Assembly (NCBI GenBank): GCA_002496355.1
Contig: DAJP01000050.1
Coordinates: 1,810 to 60,930 of the forward strand
Origin: Euryarchaeota archaeon UBA346
Lineage (GTDB): Archaea; Thermoplasmatota; E2; DHVEG-1
Reading direction: 5' to 3'
Length of the DNA stretch: 59,121 bases
Part shown: in pieces, positions 16,510 through 27,599 of the stretch
Layout: each line of letters starts with the position of its first letter
Position numbering within the stretch: the stretch's first letter is position 1
Notes under the pieces: model-generated
The model's input: only the letters and a program-made list of their open reading frames with translations
Database searches by the model: none
What the model was told of the DNA's origin: nothing
Made by a program: the position numbers and the translations under genes

Positions 16510-17478
16510 TTGATAAGAACCGTACAGATATATTTATATAAAATAACAGAGAACCGTATCAGTATGAGTGGTTCTGGTGAGGATATAGGATCTAAGATAG
16601 GTGTCTATCTGAAACTTCTACGACCATTTACCCTTCTCGCACCCCTGATTGTCTCCAGTAGCGTCATCATCGCAAGTCTGGTGGAATCTCATATCACAGA
16701 TCAAATTGGTATTTCCCTTCTTCTCACAATACTTACCGCAAGTTTTTGCTTCGCCTTACTCAATGGAGCATCCAATGTCTTAAATCAAGCAACAGACTGG
16801 AAAGAAGATGCCATATCAAAACCCTATCGACCGATACCAAATGGAATCGTCACCTCAAAGGAAGCATACCAGCTTTCCTGTATGCTCTATGTAGGAGCAT
16901 TCCTCCTGTCCTTCGCCGTCCATGCCCTCTTTAGTTTCTTCATCACCCTGATTGCTGTATTCTCCATTACCTATTCCCTCACACCACGCATGAAAAGATT
17001 CCTTTTTTTCAACCAGCTATGGGTCGCAATCCCAAGAGGATTCTTTGCCATTCTTGCTTCCTGGAGTGTGTTTGGAAACCCTTTTAAGCCACTCCCGTTA
17101 GCTATCGGGTGCGTTGCCGCTCTGTTTCTTTTCGGCGGAACCACCACAAAAGACATACTTGATGCAGAGGCAGATCGGGTTGTGGGAACAAAAACACTCG
17201 TCAACGTCTATGGTGTGAAAATAGCTGCTGTTCTCTCATTGATCTTCATGGTGAGCGCATTTTGTTTGATCATTCCCCTCGTATATCTTCAGGTTCTACC
17301 AACGGTTGTTTTTCCTCTCTCATTTCTAAGTTTCCTTAGCGTCATTATCGGATGGCTCATGATCCACAAACACAAAAATTCAAAATGGGAGAACACCTCA
17401 GCTTGGACCGTGATGTACGCAACTTATTTTCTTTTTGCATTCAGTTTTGCGATTATCACGATTTTTTCTTCTGCGTAA
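16510..17478 (+). CDS. UbiA-family prenyltransferase, ChlG/BchG- or DGGGPS-like, variant first motif NQxxDxxxD
   Basis: About 8-9 TM helices. Motif 1 is LNQATDWKEDAISKPYRPIPNG and motif 2 is KDILDAEADRVVGTKTL. The probable start is the ATG at 16564 (MSGSGEDIG...). It is a paralogue of 20784..21800. Confidence 0.8.
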   Translation: MIRTVQIYLYKITENRISMSGSGEDIGSKIGVYLKLLRPFTLLAPLIVSSSVIIASLVESHITDQIGISLLLTILTASFCFALLNGASNVLNQATDWKEDAISKPYRPIPNGIVTSKEAYQLSCMLYVGAFLLSFAVHALFSFFITLIAVFSITYSLTPRMKRFLFFNQLWVAIPRGFFAILASWSVFGNPFKPLPLAIGCVAALFLFGGTTTKDILDAEADRVVGTKTLVNVYGVKIAAVLSLIFMVSAFCLIIPLVYLQVLPTVVFPLSFLSFLSVIIGWLMIHKHKNSKWENTSAWTVMYATYFLFAFSFAIITIFSSA

Positions 17479-20400
17479 TCCTCGTTTTCACATCCAAGAT
17501 GATCGCTACTGCTGCAACGATGACTGCGAGACAGACGGCATAGAATCCCGTACTAAAGCCCCAGTTCGAATGCAGGATGATCTCTTCGAAACCCATTGAT
17601 ACCGACAGCATCTCTTCCCCTTGGACCGAGCCAAGGCTTGTTTCGATTAATCGCGTCGTCCCAACGATAAAAGCAGCTAGCAGGATTCCCAGCAGAATCA
17701 CCCCGATGACACTGAACGCAAATCCATAATTTTTTTTCTTCGTCCTTCTCAAAATGATTCCTATCGTGATACTCGCACAAGCAAGGAACATGATCGGTAC
17801 TATCCAACCTAGAAACAGAAGGAACATATCAGGCATTTCCGCCAATGTCAAGGATACCTCCCCATAATAGGTTTTTGTCTCAATCATCATCCCTGGATTA
17901 ATGTACAACGAGGTAGTTTTTTCTGCAGGGAGCGTCGAACTAACTCCCGTAAATAACCACCAGGGTTGGAAGAACGATAAGATGACAAGGAGGATTGCCA
18001 GGGATTTCAATAACGAGGACACTGAAAATTTTCTTAGGATTGTCAGTATCACAAAAAATCCAAAAAGCATATAAAAAACCAATGATAGAAACAGCGGGAA
18101 TAATGATTCTATCATCGTCACAAACGTCAAATGCTTATCATTGAAGAGATCCACAGGTTTTACTCCAATGAGCTCATTGTCCAAATAAGCGTTGATTGAA
18201 TAATGCGCGGGTGGGAGCACAATGGTTTTTTCCTTTGTTCTTTCTATCGTTTGATTGTTTCGAAAGATGACAAATTCTACCTCGTCATTGACCAACGTGT
18301 TTCCCTTGGAATCAAAAAGATCAATAACGACATTAAAGCGAGCTGAAAACTTCATCTGAACAGCGTCCCCTGAATTGGGGATTGTCACATGGACATCATC
18401 AAGGAACTCACCAAAACTGATCTGCAGATGGTAATCACCAACTGGGACCCTTTCAAAGACAAAGGATCCTTTTCCATTATTTTTGGGTGTTATCTGAACC
18501 GTTGTATTTCCATTTGAAGTGACTAGAATGGGTGTCAACTCGATTCCTGGTGGAAGATAAAGAGCATCCGTTATGACTACCGGAAGGTCATAAAGACCCA
18601 AAGTAATCTCCTTACTTAATTTTTTTATTGTTTTTTGTAGTTGCTGATCGTAGATAATCATATCCTTGTACTCTGCTTTCAGGACATAGGGGTCCTGTGG
18701 ATCGAACGGGGCTTTGACAACTAATTCTCCGTTCCCCTGTGTGATATTTTCATCGTACAGCACCCCGTTTTTATTCATCAGCCAACCATGGATCCCTGCT
18801 ATCCCCACTCCATTTTGATCAAGAAATGAATATTTTATAGTCCGCTCCCAAGTGCAGAAAACATTTATTCGTTTGTCTTTGTTCAAATGAAGAACGTTTG
18901 ACCCGGTGAAAATCTTCCTATTGCCCCATTTAAAGAATATTTTAACAAGATAGTCGCCCTCCAGGACATCAGTAAAGGTTTTTTTCGCTCGTATGAACAG
19001 CGATCGATTGGCTGCCCCGTCAAAGATGACGCGACCATTTTGATCAAGCTCAATCCACATCACCGGAAAGACATTACCAACCAGGTTCGACAACCAAGGA
19101 TGAGCGAGATGTGTTCTCCCTAAACGAGCGATGATGGTGACATTATATCGTTTGAGTTCTCTTTCAAAGGGGATGTCACCAGAGTAACTGCGAGATTTCT
19201 GTAACTCCTTATAAAAATATGATTCCTGTTGCACGCTTTCATATCCGCCGGTTTCAGATGCAAAGACTTCTGCATCGAATTGGACAATAAGATCTGAAGG
19301 GATAGTGACATCATGACTATGCCCAGGTTGAAACGAATGTCTCCCAAAATTAATGGAGACGTAATCTACCTCAGTTCCCAGGAAGTTGACATACTCCTTT
19401 TCCGCGACTTTTAATTGGGTGCCGTCCTGTTCATCGGTTCCTGAGATTACAAGACCTTTCTCCGATGCAAAGAGAACCGCATTAGCAAATCCCTTTTTCC
19501 CATCTCCATAGCACAACCATGCTTCGGATCCTAGCGTTGCATCGTTCTGATAGGAGATGACCCATTCTCGTTCTTTCGTGGAAGGATTTTGGTTCAATTG
19601 GTATTGTTCGATCTTCTCTTTGTCGCTGTAAAAGTTCAGATAAGGATAGATTTTCCCAAAGTTTAGGGAATCCACTGCAGCACTTCGTGATTTAAACGAA
19701 ATCAGGGAACCAAATCTTCCATCGACATTATCAATACCCTGTACGGTAGCATCTTTTAACATCTCATGTTTCACATGAACATTAAGACGTTTTTCTTCAG
19801 TTGGACAATAATAGTATCGATAAATCACAGTGGTCTGGACATCCTTCAATTTTGACTCACTAAATATCCCGAATTCCACCATTAGATTCCCATCAATGAA
19901 CACTTTTTTATCAATGAACACCTGATCGGAGGAACTCTCATCTTTCTCTTTGTCCCCATAATAATAGGAAAACGCAAAAGAAACGATTTGATCAGAGTCA
20001 ATGATATCAAACTCCTTACACTCTTTCTTCTGCTTCACAACCACCTGAGCACAGGAACGGTCCAAGAGTGTTCCTTCTTGTCCAACTCCGTAGACACAGT
20101 ATCCGTCTTCTTCTATGCCATAGAATTTTGCGACGGCAGATATCTCAGGTAACGGTGAGGAGGTATAGTTCAAATCCTCGATAATCACATGGTCCTTGTA
20201 ATTTGGTTGTATCGTTTCTGCATCATCGTAGTAGATGAAATACTGTTCAGTTCCATCTGCAAAATCAGGGATTAAAAAAATGACGGTGCATTCACTGATA
20301 TAACCTGTTTCTCCCGGTGTCTTTTCAAGAGAATAAATCTGGGATTCCAAATCATGCCAATGGTCCTGATGCCAGCAGGACACCCGTATGGATGTCTGAT

Positions 20401-26581: not shown

Positions 26582-27298
26582 TTACGACAGACCGATAAAT
26601 CCAAAAAGTTTTACAATAAGAGCATGGACGACGAAGATGACTGAACCGGTAATTGCAATCGACGAGATCGAAAGAAGAACCTTCCTGTTCTCAGAGAATC
26701 GTGATCGTTCAATAAGCAACGTAGCAATGGACATAAAGAAAATAAGGACAAACCAACCAACAAAATTGAGAATTGGTACATTGAAAAATTTGATGCCTGC
26801 GAGGGATTCTCCCCAGATCCACCAGTTATTGTGATGAGCGATAGGGTCCTCAAGCAAATCGAGGCAGACCCCAAAAACCCCGGCTGCGAATGATATAAAA
26901 ATTATTCGCACATAATTCTGTTTTTGATACAGCTTTGAGATAAAATATTTGCCTAGATTCATGAATAAAAAAAGATTCACGCTCCAGGCCAGTATGATGA
27001 TTAAAGGAACAGCACCACCGACAACCGAGAGATAGATAATATACCCGGAGTAATAGTATCTGCCTCCCGCGACTCCCGCTGATTCGATGATGAGGGTCGC
27101 AATGATGATTGGCAAAAAATACACGATGGTCATTCTCGTCCCATATTTCTTGTAGGAATAATAAACAAGAAAGACCCATGTTATGGCAATCACCGCGATG
27201 AATGGTGCAAGAAGCTGGGTGTGCTCCCCGAAATTTTGGTTAATCTCAATGATCGCCATGTGCTTATGACACCTTTGATTTACTCGTTTTATATTCAA
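26582..27298 (-). CDS. Polytopic membrane protein, probable carotenoid-biosynthesis-protein family (DUF422/COG2324, CruF-like)
   Basis: About 6-7 TM helices. The segment HHNNWWIWGESLAGIKFFNVPILNFVGWFVLIFF matches my recollection of the W-x-W ... G-x-P-x-x-N-x-x-GW signature of that family. The likely start is the internal ATG at 27259 (MAIIEINQ...). The family call is from memory only. Confidence 0.45.
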   Translation of the reverse strand: MNIKRVNQRCHKHMAIIEINQNFGEHTQLLAPFIAVIAITWVFLVYYSYKKYGTRMTIVYFLPIIIATLIIESAGVAGGRYYYSGYIIYLSVVGGAVPLIIILAWSVNLFLFMNLGKYFISKLYQKQNYVRIIFISFAAGVFGVCLDLLEDPIAHHNNWWIWGESLAGIKFFNVPILNFVGWFVLIFFMSIATLLIERSRFSENRKVLLSISSIAITGSVIFVVHALIVKLFGFIGLS

Positions 27299-27599
27299 TA
27301 AGTATCAATATGATAAGAGGAATCGCTGCGATGATTCCACCGATGATTGTGGGGACCAAAAAGTCTGATAATAACCCTATAATGATGATCATGATCCAGA
27401 CAAACAGGTATACCACCACATAGAAGTTCACCCGAAATTTAATGAATGTAATAAAATCTGTTTTTTGGTCCTCGGAAATCTGAGAGGTTTCTTTCTTGGG
27501 TAGAAAGAACAGGATTATCGTCGTGATGATTCCTGTGATACCTAACGGGAGAAATAAAAAGATATTATCTATGATAAACTGGCTGAGGGTTTTCTCCAT
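27264..27599 (-). CDS. Small hypothetical membrane protein (3 TM helices), first gene of the minus-strand cluster
   Basis: 111-aa ORF with three clear hydrophobic helices, on the same strand as the downstream genes and tightly packed with them. No family recognised. Confidence 0.45.
   Translation of the reverse strand: MEKTLSQFIIDNIFLFLPLGITGIITTIILFFLPKKETSQISEDQKTDFITFIKFRVNFYVVVYLFVWIMIIIIGLLSDFLVPTIIGGIIAAIPLIILILIEYKTSKSKVS

What the first reader, a model, noticed from the sequence alone, without database searches (positions are those of the whole stretch)
17456..27599. Eight-gene minus-strand isoprenoid/lipid cluster with four UbiA prenyltransferases, GGR, CrtI-like oxidoreductase, CruF-like protein and a giant membrane protein
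Seen in sequence: eight same-strand genes with short or zero spacers. In order they are a small 3-TM protein, a CruF-like membrane protein, UbiA (25575-26519), UbiA (24514-25518), a geranylgeranyl-reductase-family flavoprotein, a CrtI-family flavoprotein, UbiA (20784-21800), and a 1084-aa membrane protein. A fourth UbiA paralogue (16510-17478) converges on the 3' end. Established: core archaeal ether-lipid synthesis needs only one UbiA-type enzyme (DGGGP synthase) plus GGR. Inference: this looks like a dedicated pathway that prenylates, reduces and possibly hydrates an isoprenoid or membrane-lipid scaffold. I know of no characterised pathway with this gene content. GGGPS, CarS, CrtB and polyprenyl synthase are all absent from the window, so the substrate is unclear.
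Basis: partly seen in the sequence, partly recalled or inferred. Interest (0 to 1): 0.75.

Follow-up and report, generated by a model that had tools for sequence, protein, structure and literature searches.

The report
Modular isoprenoid-tailoring island in sediment archaeon
An uncultured sediment archaeon (Thermoprofundales/MBG-D) has seven divergent isoprenoid enzyme genes packed around an unrelated surface-protein gene; the set recurs in related species in shuffled versions and probably makes an unknown hydroxylated, prenyl-extended membrane isoprenoid.

Summary

Corrections:
- The GGR gene starts at an ATA/ATT codon, giving 404 aa.
- The CruF-like protein is 225 aa.
- The 'giant' protein is 1059 aa.

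The window comes from a Thermoprofundales (MBG-D) archaeon. I recovered 72 related genome loci.
- The giant protein always sits next to NMN adenylyltransferase and LonB, even where no isoprenoid gene is nearby. It models as a beta-rich surface protein and has promoter-like sequence of its own. It is probably a bystander.
- The enzyme genes form a variable island between MetV/MetF and the giant gene. CrtI-like–UbiA3 (plus converging UbiA4) is the constant core.
- Small–CruF-like–UbiA1–GGR is one optional module. Other species instead carry a fifth UbiA type, CrtC-like hydratases and a squalene/phytoene-synthase-like protein.

No UbiA reaches any curated family cut-off; the nearest are DGGGP synthase and ChlG.

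The closest characterised systems are the haloarchaeal bacterioruberin cluster (CrtD–LyeJ–CruF) and the Methanosarcina GGR/CrtI-homologue lipid hydratase.

Best reading: an accessory island that hydrates, prenylates and partly saturates isoprenoid chain ends. The product is unknown. It is a new variant of a known kind, of moderate interest.

The parts
27264..27599 (-). Small 111-aa protein with 3 TM helices. First gene of the optional module and always immediately upstream of the CruF-like gene.
   Evidence: ORF. Hydropathy. Orthologues in 9 loci plus a distant one in L033. Not homologous to the CruF-like protein (hhalign probability 0.3). No significant family hit.
26582..27259 (-). CruF-like membrane protein (PF04240 Caroten_synth), 225 aa, 6 predicted TM helices. 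Putative isoprenoid double-bond hydratase.
   Evidence: PF04240 at 64 bits against a cut-off of 25. No hit to the NCBIfam CruF equivalog even at E<=10. 172 homologues; every source name among the 120 listed is a Thermoplasmatota/Euryarchaeota MAG, and nearly all are 225 aa.
25575..26519 (-). UbiA1, a UbiA-family prenyltransferase belonging to the optional module.
   Evidence: PF01040 at 1e-28. Best NCBIfam hit is PRK12884 at 123.6 bits against a cut-off of 269. Best PDB hit is M. jannaschii DGGGPS at 2e-9. Motifs HNDITDLESD and GDYVGD are intact. Below 28% identity to the other three UbiAs.
24514..25518 (-). UbiA2, the most divergent UbiA paralogue. Variably present, with two allelic types among close relatives.
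   Evidence: PF01040 at 2e-19. No PDB sequence hit. PRK12884 at 60 bits. Absent in L015 and L017. 87% identical in L020 but only 62-64% in L006, L029 and L040, whose other genes are more similar to the window's.
23274..24488 (-). Geranylgeranyl-reductase-family flavoprotein, 404 aa, with a non-canonical ATA (or ATT at 24494) start codon. Its stop abuts the start of the CrtI-like gene.
   Evidence: TIGR02032 at 219.6 bits (cut-off 158.8); DGGGPL reductase equivalogs at 97-124 bits (cut-offs 580-780). Start-codon alignment.
21870..23273 (-). CrtI/amine-oxidase-family flavoprotein, 467 aa. The constant partner of UbiA3 across the island family.
   Evidence: crtI_fam at 73 bits against a cut-off of 238. 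PDB best hit is 3KA7, an 'oxidoreductase', at 8.6e-21; a carotene desaturase scores 6.6e-14. Only 25 representatives at E<=1e-30 among 1.84 billion. Present in 24 of 25 loci.
20784..21752 (-). UbiA3, a highly conserved UbiA (DGGGPS/ChlG/HPT-like, NQxxDxxxD motif) directly upstream of the giant gene. The ORF could start as far upstream as 21800.
   Evidence: PF01040 at 1e-35. PRK12884 at 125.7 bits against a cut-off of 269. PDB hits: DGGGPS at 4e-14, ChlG at 9e-8. Orthologues are 315-321 aa and 72-92% identical; JGI auto-names them DGGGPS. Upstream of the giant gene in 30 of 61 loci.
17456..20635 (-). 'Giant' protein, 1059 aa: signal anchor, about 800-aa all-beta ectodomain and 5 C-terminal TM helices. 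Enclosed by the island but probably an independent cell-surface gene.
   Evidence: More than 385 homologues of about 1059 aa; every source name given is an archaeal MAG, mostly Thermoplasmatota. Giant-NadM-LonB synteny in 52 of 56 loci, including those with no isoprenoid genes. AF2 model pLDDT 82. Foldseek hits are pilins, adhesins, SlaB and lyase beta-sandwiches, all at low TM-score. T7 run plus TATA-like sequence plus GGAG upstream.
16510..17478 (+). UbiA4, a 47%-identical paralogue of UbiA3. It converges on the 3' end of the giant gene and overlaps it by 23 nt.
   Evidence: 47% identity over 297 aa. PDB hits: DGGGPS at 38.8 bits, ChlG at 36.5 bits. Present in 27 of 57 loci.

Best explanation
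The window carries one configuration of a modular, accessory isoprenoid-tailoring island. The island is specific to one sub-lineage of Thermoprofundales (MBG-D) archaea. It lies between the MetV/MetF genes and a conserved surface-protein/NadM/LonB block.

Shown:
- The seven enzyme genes are intact and under purifying selection.
- They co-occur across species in two main variants.
- They belong to families whose chemistry is prenyl transfer (four UbiA genes of three types), flavin-dependent reduction of prenyl double bonds (GGR), flavin-dependent desaturation or hydration of polyprenyl chains (CrtI family), and addition of water to an isoprene double bond (CruF-like).

Inferred mechanism:
- The enzymes elaborate the unsaturated ends of membrane-embedded polyprenyl chains. 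The most likely substrate is the geranylgeranyl chains of archaeal ether-lipid precursors made by, or alongside, the DGGGPS-like UbiA3.
- The logic is the same as lycopene-to-bacterioruberin: a hydratase (CruF-like here; CrtC-like in sister islands) and/or the CrtI-like enzyme installs hydroxyls, UbiA paralogues add further prenyl units, and the GGR paralogue saturates the remaining double bonds.
- The expected product is a hydroxylated, prenyl-extended or branched, largely saturated isoprenoid membrane lipid. Its exact structure cannot be deduced.

The giant protein is a bystander surface protein. The region is probably at least three transcription units: Small through CrtI-like; UbiA3; and the giant gene.
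For: Families and intact motifs.

Synteny:
- CrtI-like-UbiA3 is adjacent in 24 of 25 loci.
- The full gene order recurs in 5 other species.
- In L037, the block that in the window runs Small-CruF-like-UbiA1-GGR-CrtI-like (with UbiA2 between UbiA1 and GGR) is inverted as a five-gene unit without UbiA2.
- Orthologue identities of 60-93% indicate purifying selection.

Swap of non-homologous hydratases: CruF-like occurs in 10 islands and cytoplasmic CrtC-like proteins in 5 others, never both together. This argues that hydration of an isoprene double bond is an obligatory step.

Leaning towards a lipid substrate rather than a pigment:
- All four UbiAs score best against archaeal PRK12884/DGGGPS models, and the best solved relative is M. 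jannaschii DGGGPS.
- UbiA3 is auto-named DGGGPS by JGI.
- The closest solved relative of the CrtI-like protein is 3KA7, an uncharacterised 'oxidoreductase' (from Methanosarcina mazei, by my recollection), ahead of carotene desaturases. Its nearest out-group is in Asgard archaea.
- The only characterised non-carotenoid archaeal CrtI homologue, MA0127, hydrates a geranylgeranyl chain of an archaeol precursor (PMC10821996, PMC12777485).
- There is no CrtB, CrtE, GGGPS or CarS in the 59 kb window.

Bacterioruberin triad crtD-lyeJ-cruF: PMC11946383.

Giant as bystander.
Against: - No substrate or product is known. MBG-D archaea are uncultured and their lipids are unassigned.
- The CruF and CrtC families are so far characterised only on carotenoids.
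- Some sister islands carry a squalene/phytoene-synthase-like gene (c42). That points to a free C30-C40 hydrocarbon backbone rather than ether lipids.
- I could not test whether any UbiA is related to LyeJ/CrtEb, because no reference sequence or model was at hand.
- UbiA3 and UbiA4 flank the giant gene on both sides. A functional link to that protein, such as lipid modification of a surface protein, is not excluded.
- The GGR's ATA start could mean low or no expression in this genome.
- The operon structure is inferred from sequence only.
Confidence: 0.45

Rival explanations
1. The island is a carotenoid-type (free polyterpene) pathway. It builds or modifies a C30-C50 acyclic hydrocarbon, such as a bacterioruberin-like or hydrated/hydrogenated squalene- or lycopersene-like membrane regulator, not ether lipids. 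A PSY/SQS-like enzyme, encoded in the island in some species and elsewhere in this genome, would make the backbone. The CrtI-like enzyme would desaturate it or act like HpnE. UbiA enzymes would act as LyeJ-like elongases. CruF-like or CrtC-like enzymes would hydrate the ends. GGR would hydrogenate.
For: - Every accessory family (CruF-like PF04240, CrtC PF07143, CrtI family, SQS_PSY-like c42) comes from the carotenoid/squalene toolkit.
- c42 carries DxxxD and QLIDDISDxxEDxxxG..LP motifs, and its profile hits CrtM at 1.5e-4.
- The triad matches crtD-lyeJ-cruF (PMC11946383).
- A 41%-identical bacterial homologue of the CrtI-like protein lies 2.6 kb from a squalene-hopene-cyclase-like gene.
- A published proposal holds that GGR paralogues saturate polyterpenes (PMC10821996).
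Against: - c42 is absent from the window and from all CruF/GGR-type islands.
- The window has no CrtB, CrtE or true CrtI.
- The CrtI-like protein scores far below every carotenoid desaturase equivalog (51-74 bits against cut-offs of 238-1000).
- The CruF-like protein does not hit the CruF equivalog at all.
- The UbiAs resemble DGGGPS/ChlG.
- Three to five different UbiA paralogues are more than a LyeJ-type pathway needs.
- The hosts live in dark, anoxic sediment (PMC6461988).
Confidence: 0.22
2. There is no single pathway. The region is a composite of independently acting genes: UbiA3 (and perhaps UbiA4) is the ordinary DGGGP synthase of core lipid synthesis, the giant gene encodes a surface protein, and Small-CruF-like-UbiA1-(UbiA2)-GGR-CrtI-like is a separate accessory module that happens to have inserted at a recombination-prone spot.
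For: - Gene content is modular and variable, the module is inverted in L037, UbiA2 is present or absent and has divergent alleles, and UbiAx is split in L013.
- UbiA3 is the most conserved gene (up to 93% identity) and is auto-named DGGGPS.
- Promoter- and terminator-like sequences lie before UbiA3 and before the giant gene.
- The island always occupies the same MetV-to-giant interval.
Against: - CrtI-like is next to UbiA3 in 24 of 25 loci, whichever upstream module is present.
- UbiA3 scores only 81 and 63 bits on the DGGGPS-named equivalogs (cut-offs 296 and 353) and nearly the same on ChlG and HPT models.
- Half of the lineage has neither UbiA3 nor UbiA4 near the giant gene.
- A duplicated UbiA3/UbiA4 pair is not expected for a single housekeeping DGGGPS.
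Confidence: 0.2
3. UbiA3/UbiA4 plus the GGR form a ChlG/BchG + ChlP/BchP-like or HPT-like pair. They would prenylate a tetrapyrrole or aromatic head group, such as a quinone- or tocopherol-like compound, and then reduce the tail.
For: - UbiA3 and UbiA4 carry NQxxDxxxD...KPYRPIP, and they score on ChlG, BchG and HPT models about as well as on DGGGPS (68-79 bits on ChlG/BchG; HPT 77 for UbiA3, 43 for UbiA4).
- The GGR's second-best family is BchP-ChlP, at 178 bits.
- 'bchG' genes have been reported in Thermoplasmata-related sediment MAGs and shown to be active in an MCG fosmid (PMC6146748, PMC3930316).
Against: - All scores are far below cut-offs (212-436 for ChlG/BchG, 343 for BchP).
- No tetrapyrrole, quinone-ring or homogentisate genes lie in the window or the island.
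- GGR is absent from more than half of the islands that have UbiA3/UbiA4.
- This reading does not explain the CruF-like, CrtC-like and CrtI-like genes.
Confidence: 0.07

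Closest known systems
Haloarchaeal bacterioruberin cluster crtI/crtD(c0507)-lyeJ(c0506)-cruF(c0505) (Haloarcula japonica; PMC11946383)
   Same: A co-directional cluster combining a CrtI-family flavoenzyme, a UbiA-family prenyltransferase and a PF04240 (CruF-type) membrane hydratase. 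Together these elaborate the ends of an acyclic isoprenoid by C5 addition, desaturation and hydration.
   Different: - The window has four UbiA genes of three unrelated types, not one.
- It adds a GGR paralogue and a small TM protein.
- There is no lycopene supply.
- The CrtI-like and CruF-like proteins are far below the CrtD/CrtI and CruF equivalog thresholds.
- The host is an anaerobic sediment archaeon, not a pigmented halophile.
- Sister islands use CrtC-like proteins in place of CruF-like ones.
Methanosarcina acetivorans hydroxyarchaeol step: CrtI homologue MA0127 acting with the GGR pathway (Mori et al. 2015, cited in PMC10821996 and PMC12777485)
   Same: An archaeal CrtI-family protein outside any carotenoid context that hydrates a geranylgeranyl chain of an ether-lipid precursor and works alongside GGR saturation. 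By my recollection (not checked here), the closest solved relative of the window's CrtI-like protein, 3KA7, is from a Methanosarcina species.
   Different: - Orthology to MA0127 was not tested, because no sequence was at hand.
- Identity to 3KA7 is only about 30% over part of the protein.
- I know of no UbiA or CruF partners for MA0127.
DGGGP synthase (archaeal UbiA-family lipid enzyme; PDB 6M31)
   Same: It is the best solved relative of UbiA1, UbiA3 and UbiA4. They share the Asp-rich motifs and a length of about 300 aa with 8-9 TM helices.
   Different: Scores on the DGGGPS-named equivalog models are 23-81 bits against cut-offs of 278-353. The best model, PRK12884, is itself only named 'prenyltransferase'. 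Four paralogues are present where one would suffice.
Chlorophyll/bacteriochlorophyll synthase + GG reductase pair (ChlG/BchG + ChlP/BchP), including archaeal 'bchG-like' genes (PMC3930316, PMC6146748)
   Same: UbiA3/UbiA4 and the GGR show second-rank similarity to ChlG/BchG and BchP/ChlP. Such genes have been noted before in sediment archaea without explanation.
   Different: The window has no tetrapyrrole pathway, the scores are far below cut-offs, and GGR is not constantly associated with UbiA3/UbiA4.
CrtC acyclic carotenoid 1,2-hydratase (PF07143)
   Same: Sister islands carry cytoplasmic CrtC-like proteins where this window has the CruF-like gene. The window also has an unlinked CrtC-like gene at 49027-50082 that passes the Pfam cut-off.
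   Different: The Pfam matches of the island copies are at or below the cut-off (about 21-23 bits). The window's own copy has a signal-peptide-like N-terminus and lies 22 kb away.

Membership tests
UbiA prenyltransferase superfamily (PF01040) | Pfam gathering score passed; two Asp-rich motifs N(D/Q)xxDxxxD and DxxxD; 8-9 TM helices | tested here: met
   All four proteins score 70-124 bits against a cut-off of 34.2. Motifs are intact. Multiple TM segments are predicted.
DGGGP synthase (NCBIfam NF009521, NF009522, NF009512) | Score at or above the curated equivalog cut-off (278-353 bits) | tested here: not met
   UbiA3 scores 81, 63 and 23 bits. UbiA1 scores 76, 78 and 46. UbiA4 scores 70, 45 and 22. 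UbiA2 scores 39 on NF009521 only, with no hit to the other two. These models may be too narrow for this lineage. JGI auto-names UbiA3 orthologues DGGGPS, so true DGGGPS function for UbiA3 is not excluded.
MenA / UbiA (4-HB) / MqnP / heme O synthase / ChlG-BchG / HPT / DPPR synthase | Score at or above the curated cut-off of the respective NCBIfam model | tested here: not met
   All scores are 13-79 bits against cut-offs of 207-494.
Lycopene elongase LyeJ / CrtEb | Orthology to characterised LyeJ/CrtEb; activity adding C5 to a psi-end with hydration | not testable with these tools
   No hit carried a lycopene-elongase name in NCBIfam. No reference sequence could be retrieved; a plasmid search with the CruF-like protein gave only Klebsiella hits.
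CruF (carotenoid 1,2-hydratase; NCBIfam NF045693) / PF04240 | PF04240 gathering score; CruF equivalog cut-off of 400 bits | tested here: inconclusive
   PF04240 is met (64 bits against 25). The CruF equivalog gives no hit at all at E<=10. The protein is therefore a family member but not a CruF orthologue.
Geranylgeranyl reductase family (TIGR02032) | Subfamily cut-off of 158.8 bits; N-terminal GxGxxG FAD motif | tested here: met
   219.6 bits with the ATA/ATT-initiated N-terminus, which contains VGAGPAG.
Digeranylgeranylglycerophospholipid reductase (core-lipid GGR; NF041080, NF041160, NF041385) | Equivalog cut-offs of 580-780 bits | tested here: not met
   124, 105 and 97 bits. This is a GGR paralogue, not the canonical lipid reductase.
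Phytoene desaturase family CrtI/CrtD/CrtN/HpnE (TIGR02734 and equivalogs) | crtI_fam subfamily cut-off of 238 bits, or equivalog cut-offs | tested here: not met
   crtI_fam 73 bits; CrtD 58-64 bits; HpnE 60.5 bits. The protein meets only the broader PF01593 amine-oxidase fold family (60.9 bits against 19.8). Very few close relatives exist.
Hydroxyarchaeol-type lipid hydratase (MA0127 family) | Orthology to MA0127/MMP0146; hydration of the 2',3' double bond of a geranylgeranyl chain | not tested
   No MA0127 sequence was available. The only indirect evidence is that the best PDB hit is 3KA7, an uncharacterised 'oxidoreductase', at 8.6e-21. I recall 3KA7 as being from Methanosarcina mazei.
Bacterioruberin-type cluster (CrtD-LyeJ-CruF) | Adjacent CrtI-family, UbiA-family and PF04240 genes on one strand, plus a lycopene supply (CrtB/CrtI) | tested here: inconclusive
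   The family-level triad is present. Orthology is not shown. No lycopene genes are in the window. Extra GGR and UbiA paralogues are present.

The most novel reading that the evidence does not exclude
The island encodes a so-far undescribed branch of archaeal membrane-lipid biosynthesis. Hydratases (CruF-like or CrtC-like, and CrtI-like) would create hydroxyls on the polyprenyl chains of ether-lipid precursors. Several DGGGPS-like UbiA paralogues would then O- or C-prenylate those positions. The result would be branched, extended or ether-cross-linked hydroxylated isoprenoid lipids that could be a diagnostic, currently orphan, sedimentary biomarker for Thermoprofundales.
Probability: 0.2. Interest if true: 0.8.

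Novelty: new variant of a known kind. Interest (0 to 1): 0.55.

Why it matters
Thermoprofundales (MBG-D) are among the most abundant uncultured archaea in sediments worldwide (PMC6461988). The lineage is uncultured, and none of my paper searches linked a lipid or isoprenoid pathway to it.

A conserved but modular island with three to five UbiA paralogues, two alternative hydratase families, a very isolated CrtI-like clade and a GGR paralogue gives a concrete, clonable candidate for lineage-specific isoprenoid lipids or membrane regulators.

If a product were identified, it could link an orphan sedimentary lipid to its source organism. It could also extend the known acceptor range of DGGGPS-like UbiA enzymes and of CruF/CrtC hydratases beyond carotenoids.

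The finding also shows that 'bchG-like' or 'DGGGPS' auto-annotations in these MAGs hide a paralogue family of unknown specificity.

Tried and rejected
1. Giant protein as a pathway enzyme or lipid transporter: rejected. It is syntenic with NadM-LonB in loci that lack all isoprenoid genes. The AF2 model is an all-beta ectodomain with Ig-like, pilin, SlaB and lyase-sandwich matches at low TM-score.
2. Small protein as a split-off piece of CruF, suggested by a weak NCBIfam hit (E=0.005): rejected by profile-profile comparison (probability 0.3).
3. GGR as a truncated pseudogene: rejected. The upstream frame is open and conserved, and the ATA start is shared with an independent MAG.
4. Retrieving haloarchaeal LyeJ/CruF reference sequences from the plasmid collection: only two Klebsiella hits, uninformative.
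5. Homologue searches with the CruF-like protein and UbiA3 listed only close orthologues, all named ones from Thermoplasmatota MAGs. They gave no out-group context and could not show whether island-less MBG-D genomes have a UbiA3-like gene elsewhere.
6. Context of the nearest out-group CrtI-like proteins: the Lokiarchaeia homologue (L078) has no prenyltransferase nearby, and a bacterial contig (L080) has only a nearby squalene-hopene-cyclase-like gene.
7. Literature searches for Thermoprofundales, MBG-D or Thermoplasmatota together with UbiA, prenyltransferase or GGR returned nothing.
8. A sigma-70 promoter/terminator scan was not used because the organism is an archaeon. T-runs of 6 or more also occur inside genes, so the T7 run after UbiA3 is only suggestive.

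Full report
**1. Observation**

The ORF list confirms eight co-directional minus-strand ORFs between 17456 and 27599, and a converging plus-strand ORF at 16510-17478.

Pfam and NCBIfam give these assignments:
- Four UbiA-family proteins (PF01040, E = 1e-35 to 2e-19).
- A PF04240 'Caroten_synth' (CruF-type) membrane protein.
- A GGR-family flavoprotein.
- A CrtI/amine-oxidase-family flavoprotein.
- A 111-aa protein with 3 TM helices.
- A 1084-aa ORF with no family match.

All four UbiAs retain both catalytic Asp-rich motifs. UbiA3 and UbiA4 are 47% identical paralogues. UbiA1 and UbiA2 are below 28% identical to everything else.

Four gene models need correcting.
- GGR: the listed ORF (GTG at 24341) lacks the FAD motif. 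The frame continues upstream through ...IDYDVTIVGAGPAG... to an in-frame TAA, and only ATT or ATA is available as a start. The 404-aa version passes TIGR02032 (219.6 bits against a cut-off of 158.8). Five relatives have ATG at this position. The window and an independent MAG both have ATA, so it is a genuine non-canonical start.
- The CruF-like protein is 225 aa.
- The giant protein is 1059 aa.
- UbiA3 is about 321 aa.

No GGGPS, CarS, CrtB or polyprenyl synthase is present anywhere in the window.

**2. Source organism**

The giant protein has more than 385 homologues. Every organism name that sources give for them is an archaeal MAG, mostly Thermoplasmatota. The 72 genome loci recovered with it include SM1-50, SG8-52-3, 3300003432D and M9B1D. 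These are published Thermoprofundales (MBG-D) MAGs (PMC6461988). Archaeal LonB, archaeal NMN adenylyltransferase (185 bits against a cut-off of 127) and other markers agree with this.

**3. Synteny**

I ran tblastn and ORF clustering over the 72 loci. The results are as follows.

(a) Giant-NadM-LonB is conserved almost everywhere: NadM is downstream in 52 of 56 informative loci. This includes about half of the lineage, where the genes upstream of the giant gene are DHODH, UPF0047, nitroreductase or PKD proteins and no isoprenoid gene is nearby.

(b) In the other half, UbiA3 lies directly upstream of the giant gene (30 of 61 loci) and UbiA4 converges on it (27 of 57 loci). CrtI-like precedes UbiA3 in 24 of 25 loci.

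(c) Upstream of that core, the content varies.
- 'A-type' islands, like the window, carry Small-CruF-like-UbiA1-(UbiA2)-GGR. Five other species have the window's exact order. L015 and L017 lack UbiA2. In L037 the five genes Small-CruF-like-UbiA1-GGR-CrtI-like are inverted as one block.
- 'B-type' islands lack those genes. They carry a fifth UbiA type (UbiAx, about 30% identical to UbiA2) and UbiA2. Five loci also carry cytoplasmic CrtC-like lipocalin proteins. Four loci carry a divergently transcribed 335-367-aa protein (c42). Some carry further UbiA copies.

The c42 protein has DxxxD and QLIDDISDxxED motifs. It gives weak hits to polyprenyl_synt and SQS_PSY, and its profile hits CrtM at 1.5e-4.

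(d) The island always fills the interval between MetV/MetF (followed by an MMPL transporter) and the giant gene.

**4. The giant protein**

The AlphaFold model built with 52 homologues has a mean pLDDT of 82. It shows an N-terminal signal anchor, an ectodomain of about 800 residues that is all-beta, and five C-terminal TM helices. Foldseek finds only Ig-like, pilin, adhesin, SlaB S-layer and polysaccharide-lyase beta-sandwich matches, all at low TM-score.

Between the UbiA3 stop and the likely giant start (ATG at 20635) lie a T7 run, two TATA-like elements and a GGAG.

Taken with the synteny, the giant gene is best read as an independent cell-surface gene that the island flanks. It is not a pathway component. 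One point remains unexplained: the UbiA3/UbiA4 paralogues sit on both sides of it.

**5. Classification of the enzymes**

- UbiAs. No UbiA reaches any curated NCBIfam cut-off. All four score best on PRK12884 (60-126 bits against a cut-off of 269), which is named only 'prenyltransferase'. After that model, UbiA1, UbiA3 and UbiA4 score next on DGGGPS and ChlG/BchG models (UbiA3 also on HPT), whereas UbiA2's next hits are the 4-hydroxybenzoate prenyltransferase and DGGGPS models at about 40 bits. The best solved relative of UbiA1, UbiA3 and UbiA4 is M. jannaschii DGGGPS (40-56 bits), followed by ChlG. UbiA2 has no PDB hit. JGI auto-annotation calls UbiA3 orthologues DGGGPS. I could not resolve whether UbiA3 is the lineage's core DGGGPS.
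- GGR. It is a paralogue, not the canonical lipid reductase (124 bits against a cut-off of 580).
- CrtI-like protein. It is very isolated: only 25 cluster representatives at E<=1e-30 among 1.84 billion. Full-length relatives are at 57%, 50% and 41% identity, then about 32% in Asgard archaea. Its best solved relative is 3KA7, an uncharacterised 'oxidoreductase' (8.6e-21), which I recall as being from Methanosarcina mazei. That is ahead of a carotene desaturase (6.6e-14). The genomic context of the out-group homologues is not conserved.
- CruF-like protein. It passes PF04240 but does not hit the CruF equivalog at all.
- Small protein. It is conserved with the CruF-like gene but is not homologous to it.

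**6. Mechanism**

What is shown: a selected, modular neighbourhood of intact enzymes. Their family chemistries are prenyl transfer, prenyl-chain reduction, flavin-dependent desaturation or hydration, and isoprene double-bond hydration.

The most informative comparative signal concerns the hydratases. CruF-like and CrtC-like proteins are two non-homologous hydratase families. They occur in alternative island variants and never together. This argues that water addition to an isoprene unit is an obligatory step.

The enzyme logic parallels lycopene-to-bacterioruberin (CrtD, LyeJ, CruF; PMC11946383). The precedent that an archaeal CrtI homologue (MA0127) hydrates a geranylgeranyl chain of an archaeol precursor (PMC10821996, PMC12777485) shows that such chemistry also applies to ether lipids.

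I favour an ether-lipid (or at least membrane-lipid) substrate, for four reasons:
- The UbiAs are DGGGPS-like.
- A GGR is present.
- The affinities of the CrtI-like protein lie with non-carotenogenic archaea.
- The window contains no carotenoid backbone genes.

My confidence in this specific reading is about 0.45. The general statement that this is an isoprenoid chain-tailoring island deserves about 0.7.

The main rival is a free C30-C50 polyterpene (carotenoid- or squalene-type) pathway. It is supported by the PSY/SQS-like c42 in some B-type islands and by the carotenoid pedigree of CruF and CrtC.

A 'composite, no single pathway' reading and a ChlG/ChlP-like reading are less likely but not excluded.

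**7. Novelty and verdict**

All component families are known. The triad has a characterised precedent, so this is not categorically new.

The new elements are:
- The combination: three to five divergent UbiA paralogues, alternative hydratases, an isolated CrtI-like clade and a GGR paralogue.
- The modular evolution of the island.
- Its restriction to one sub-lineage of an abundant uncultured archaeal order.

Literature searches found no description of it. 'bchG-like' genes in related Thermoplasmata MAGs had been noted as odd (PMC6146748).

I rate it a new variant of a known kind, with interest about 0.55. It is a good, clonable lead to orphan archaeal lipids, but it has no product, no expression data and an unresolved substrate.

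Noticed in passing
window 24488-24506 (minus strand): The GGR gene has no canonical start codon. ATA (24488) or ATT (24494) follows an in-frame TAA. Five relatives have ATG at this position, while the window and the independent MAG L020 share ATA. This suggests genuine non-canonical initiation, or down-tuned translation.
   Followed up: yes
window 24514-25518; loci L006, L029, L040, L020: UbiA2 shows two allelic types. It is 87% identical in L020 but only 62-64% in L006, L029 and L040, whose other island genes are mostly 75-93% identical to the window's. UbiA2 is absent altogether in L015 and L017. This suggests recombinational replacement of the segment running from UbiA2 to the GGR start.
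   Followed up: partly
window 49027-50082 (+): An unlinked CrtC-like lipocalin protein (PF07143, 26.8 bits against a cut-off of 22.5) with a signal-peptide-like N-terminus. It is 33-35% identical to the cytoplasmic CrtC-like proteins found inside B-type islands of relatives. It sits next to an arylsulfotransferase-like gene (47224-48798).
   Followed up: partly
loci L024:4029-5075(-), L028:2229-3332(-), L033:2568-3575(-), L057:2993-4015(-): A divergently transcribed protein family (c42) with a class-I isoprenoid-synthase fold, found in some sister islands. It carries DxxxD and QLIDDISDxxED...G..LP motifs. It gives weak Pfam hits to polyprenyl_synt and SQS_PSY, and its profile hits CrtM at 1.5e-4. 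It is absent from the window.
   Followed up: partly
window 29510-32872 (+): A 1120-aa MMPL/RND-type (sterol-sensing-domain-like) transporter lies just beyond MetV/MetF. It is syntenic with the island in several relatives and could be a lipid exporter.
   Followed up: no
window 27743-29297 (+): A MetV-like (MTHFR C-terminal domain) gene and a MetF (MTHFR) gene are transcribed divergently from the island. They are conserved as its left boundary in 17 loci.
   Followed up: no
locus L013:6056-7068: UbiAx is split into two ORFs of 179 and 160 aa, and UbiA2 is missing. This looks like decay of part of the island in that species.
   Followed up: no
window 40574-44279 (-): A bacterial-type NAD-dependent DNA ligase (LigA, with BRCT) overlaps the start of a PolX-PHP polymerase gene. 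This is an unusual repair pair for an archaeon.
   Followed up: no
window 8631-9377 (-), 12822-13745 (-), 54726-56633 (-): Three other genes of note: a PAP2-family lipid phosphatase, a bactofilin-domain protein, and a gingipain-like C25 peptidase. The last fits the proposed protein-degrading lifestyle of MBG-D.
   Followed up: no
locus L080 (bacterial contig JBUDVF010000042.1) 10001-15502: The nearest non-archaeal homologue of the CrtI-like protein (41% identity) lies 2.6 kb from a squalene-hopene-cyclase-like gene. This is a faint hint that the clade acts on squalene-type substrates.
   Followed up: no
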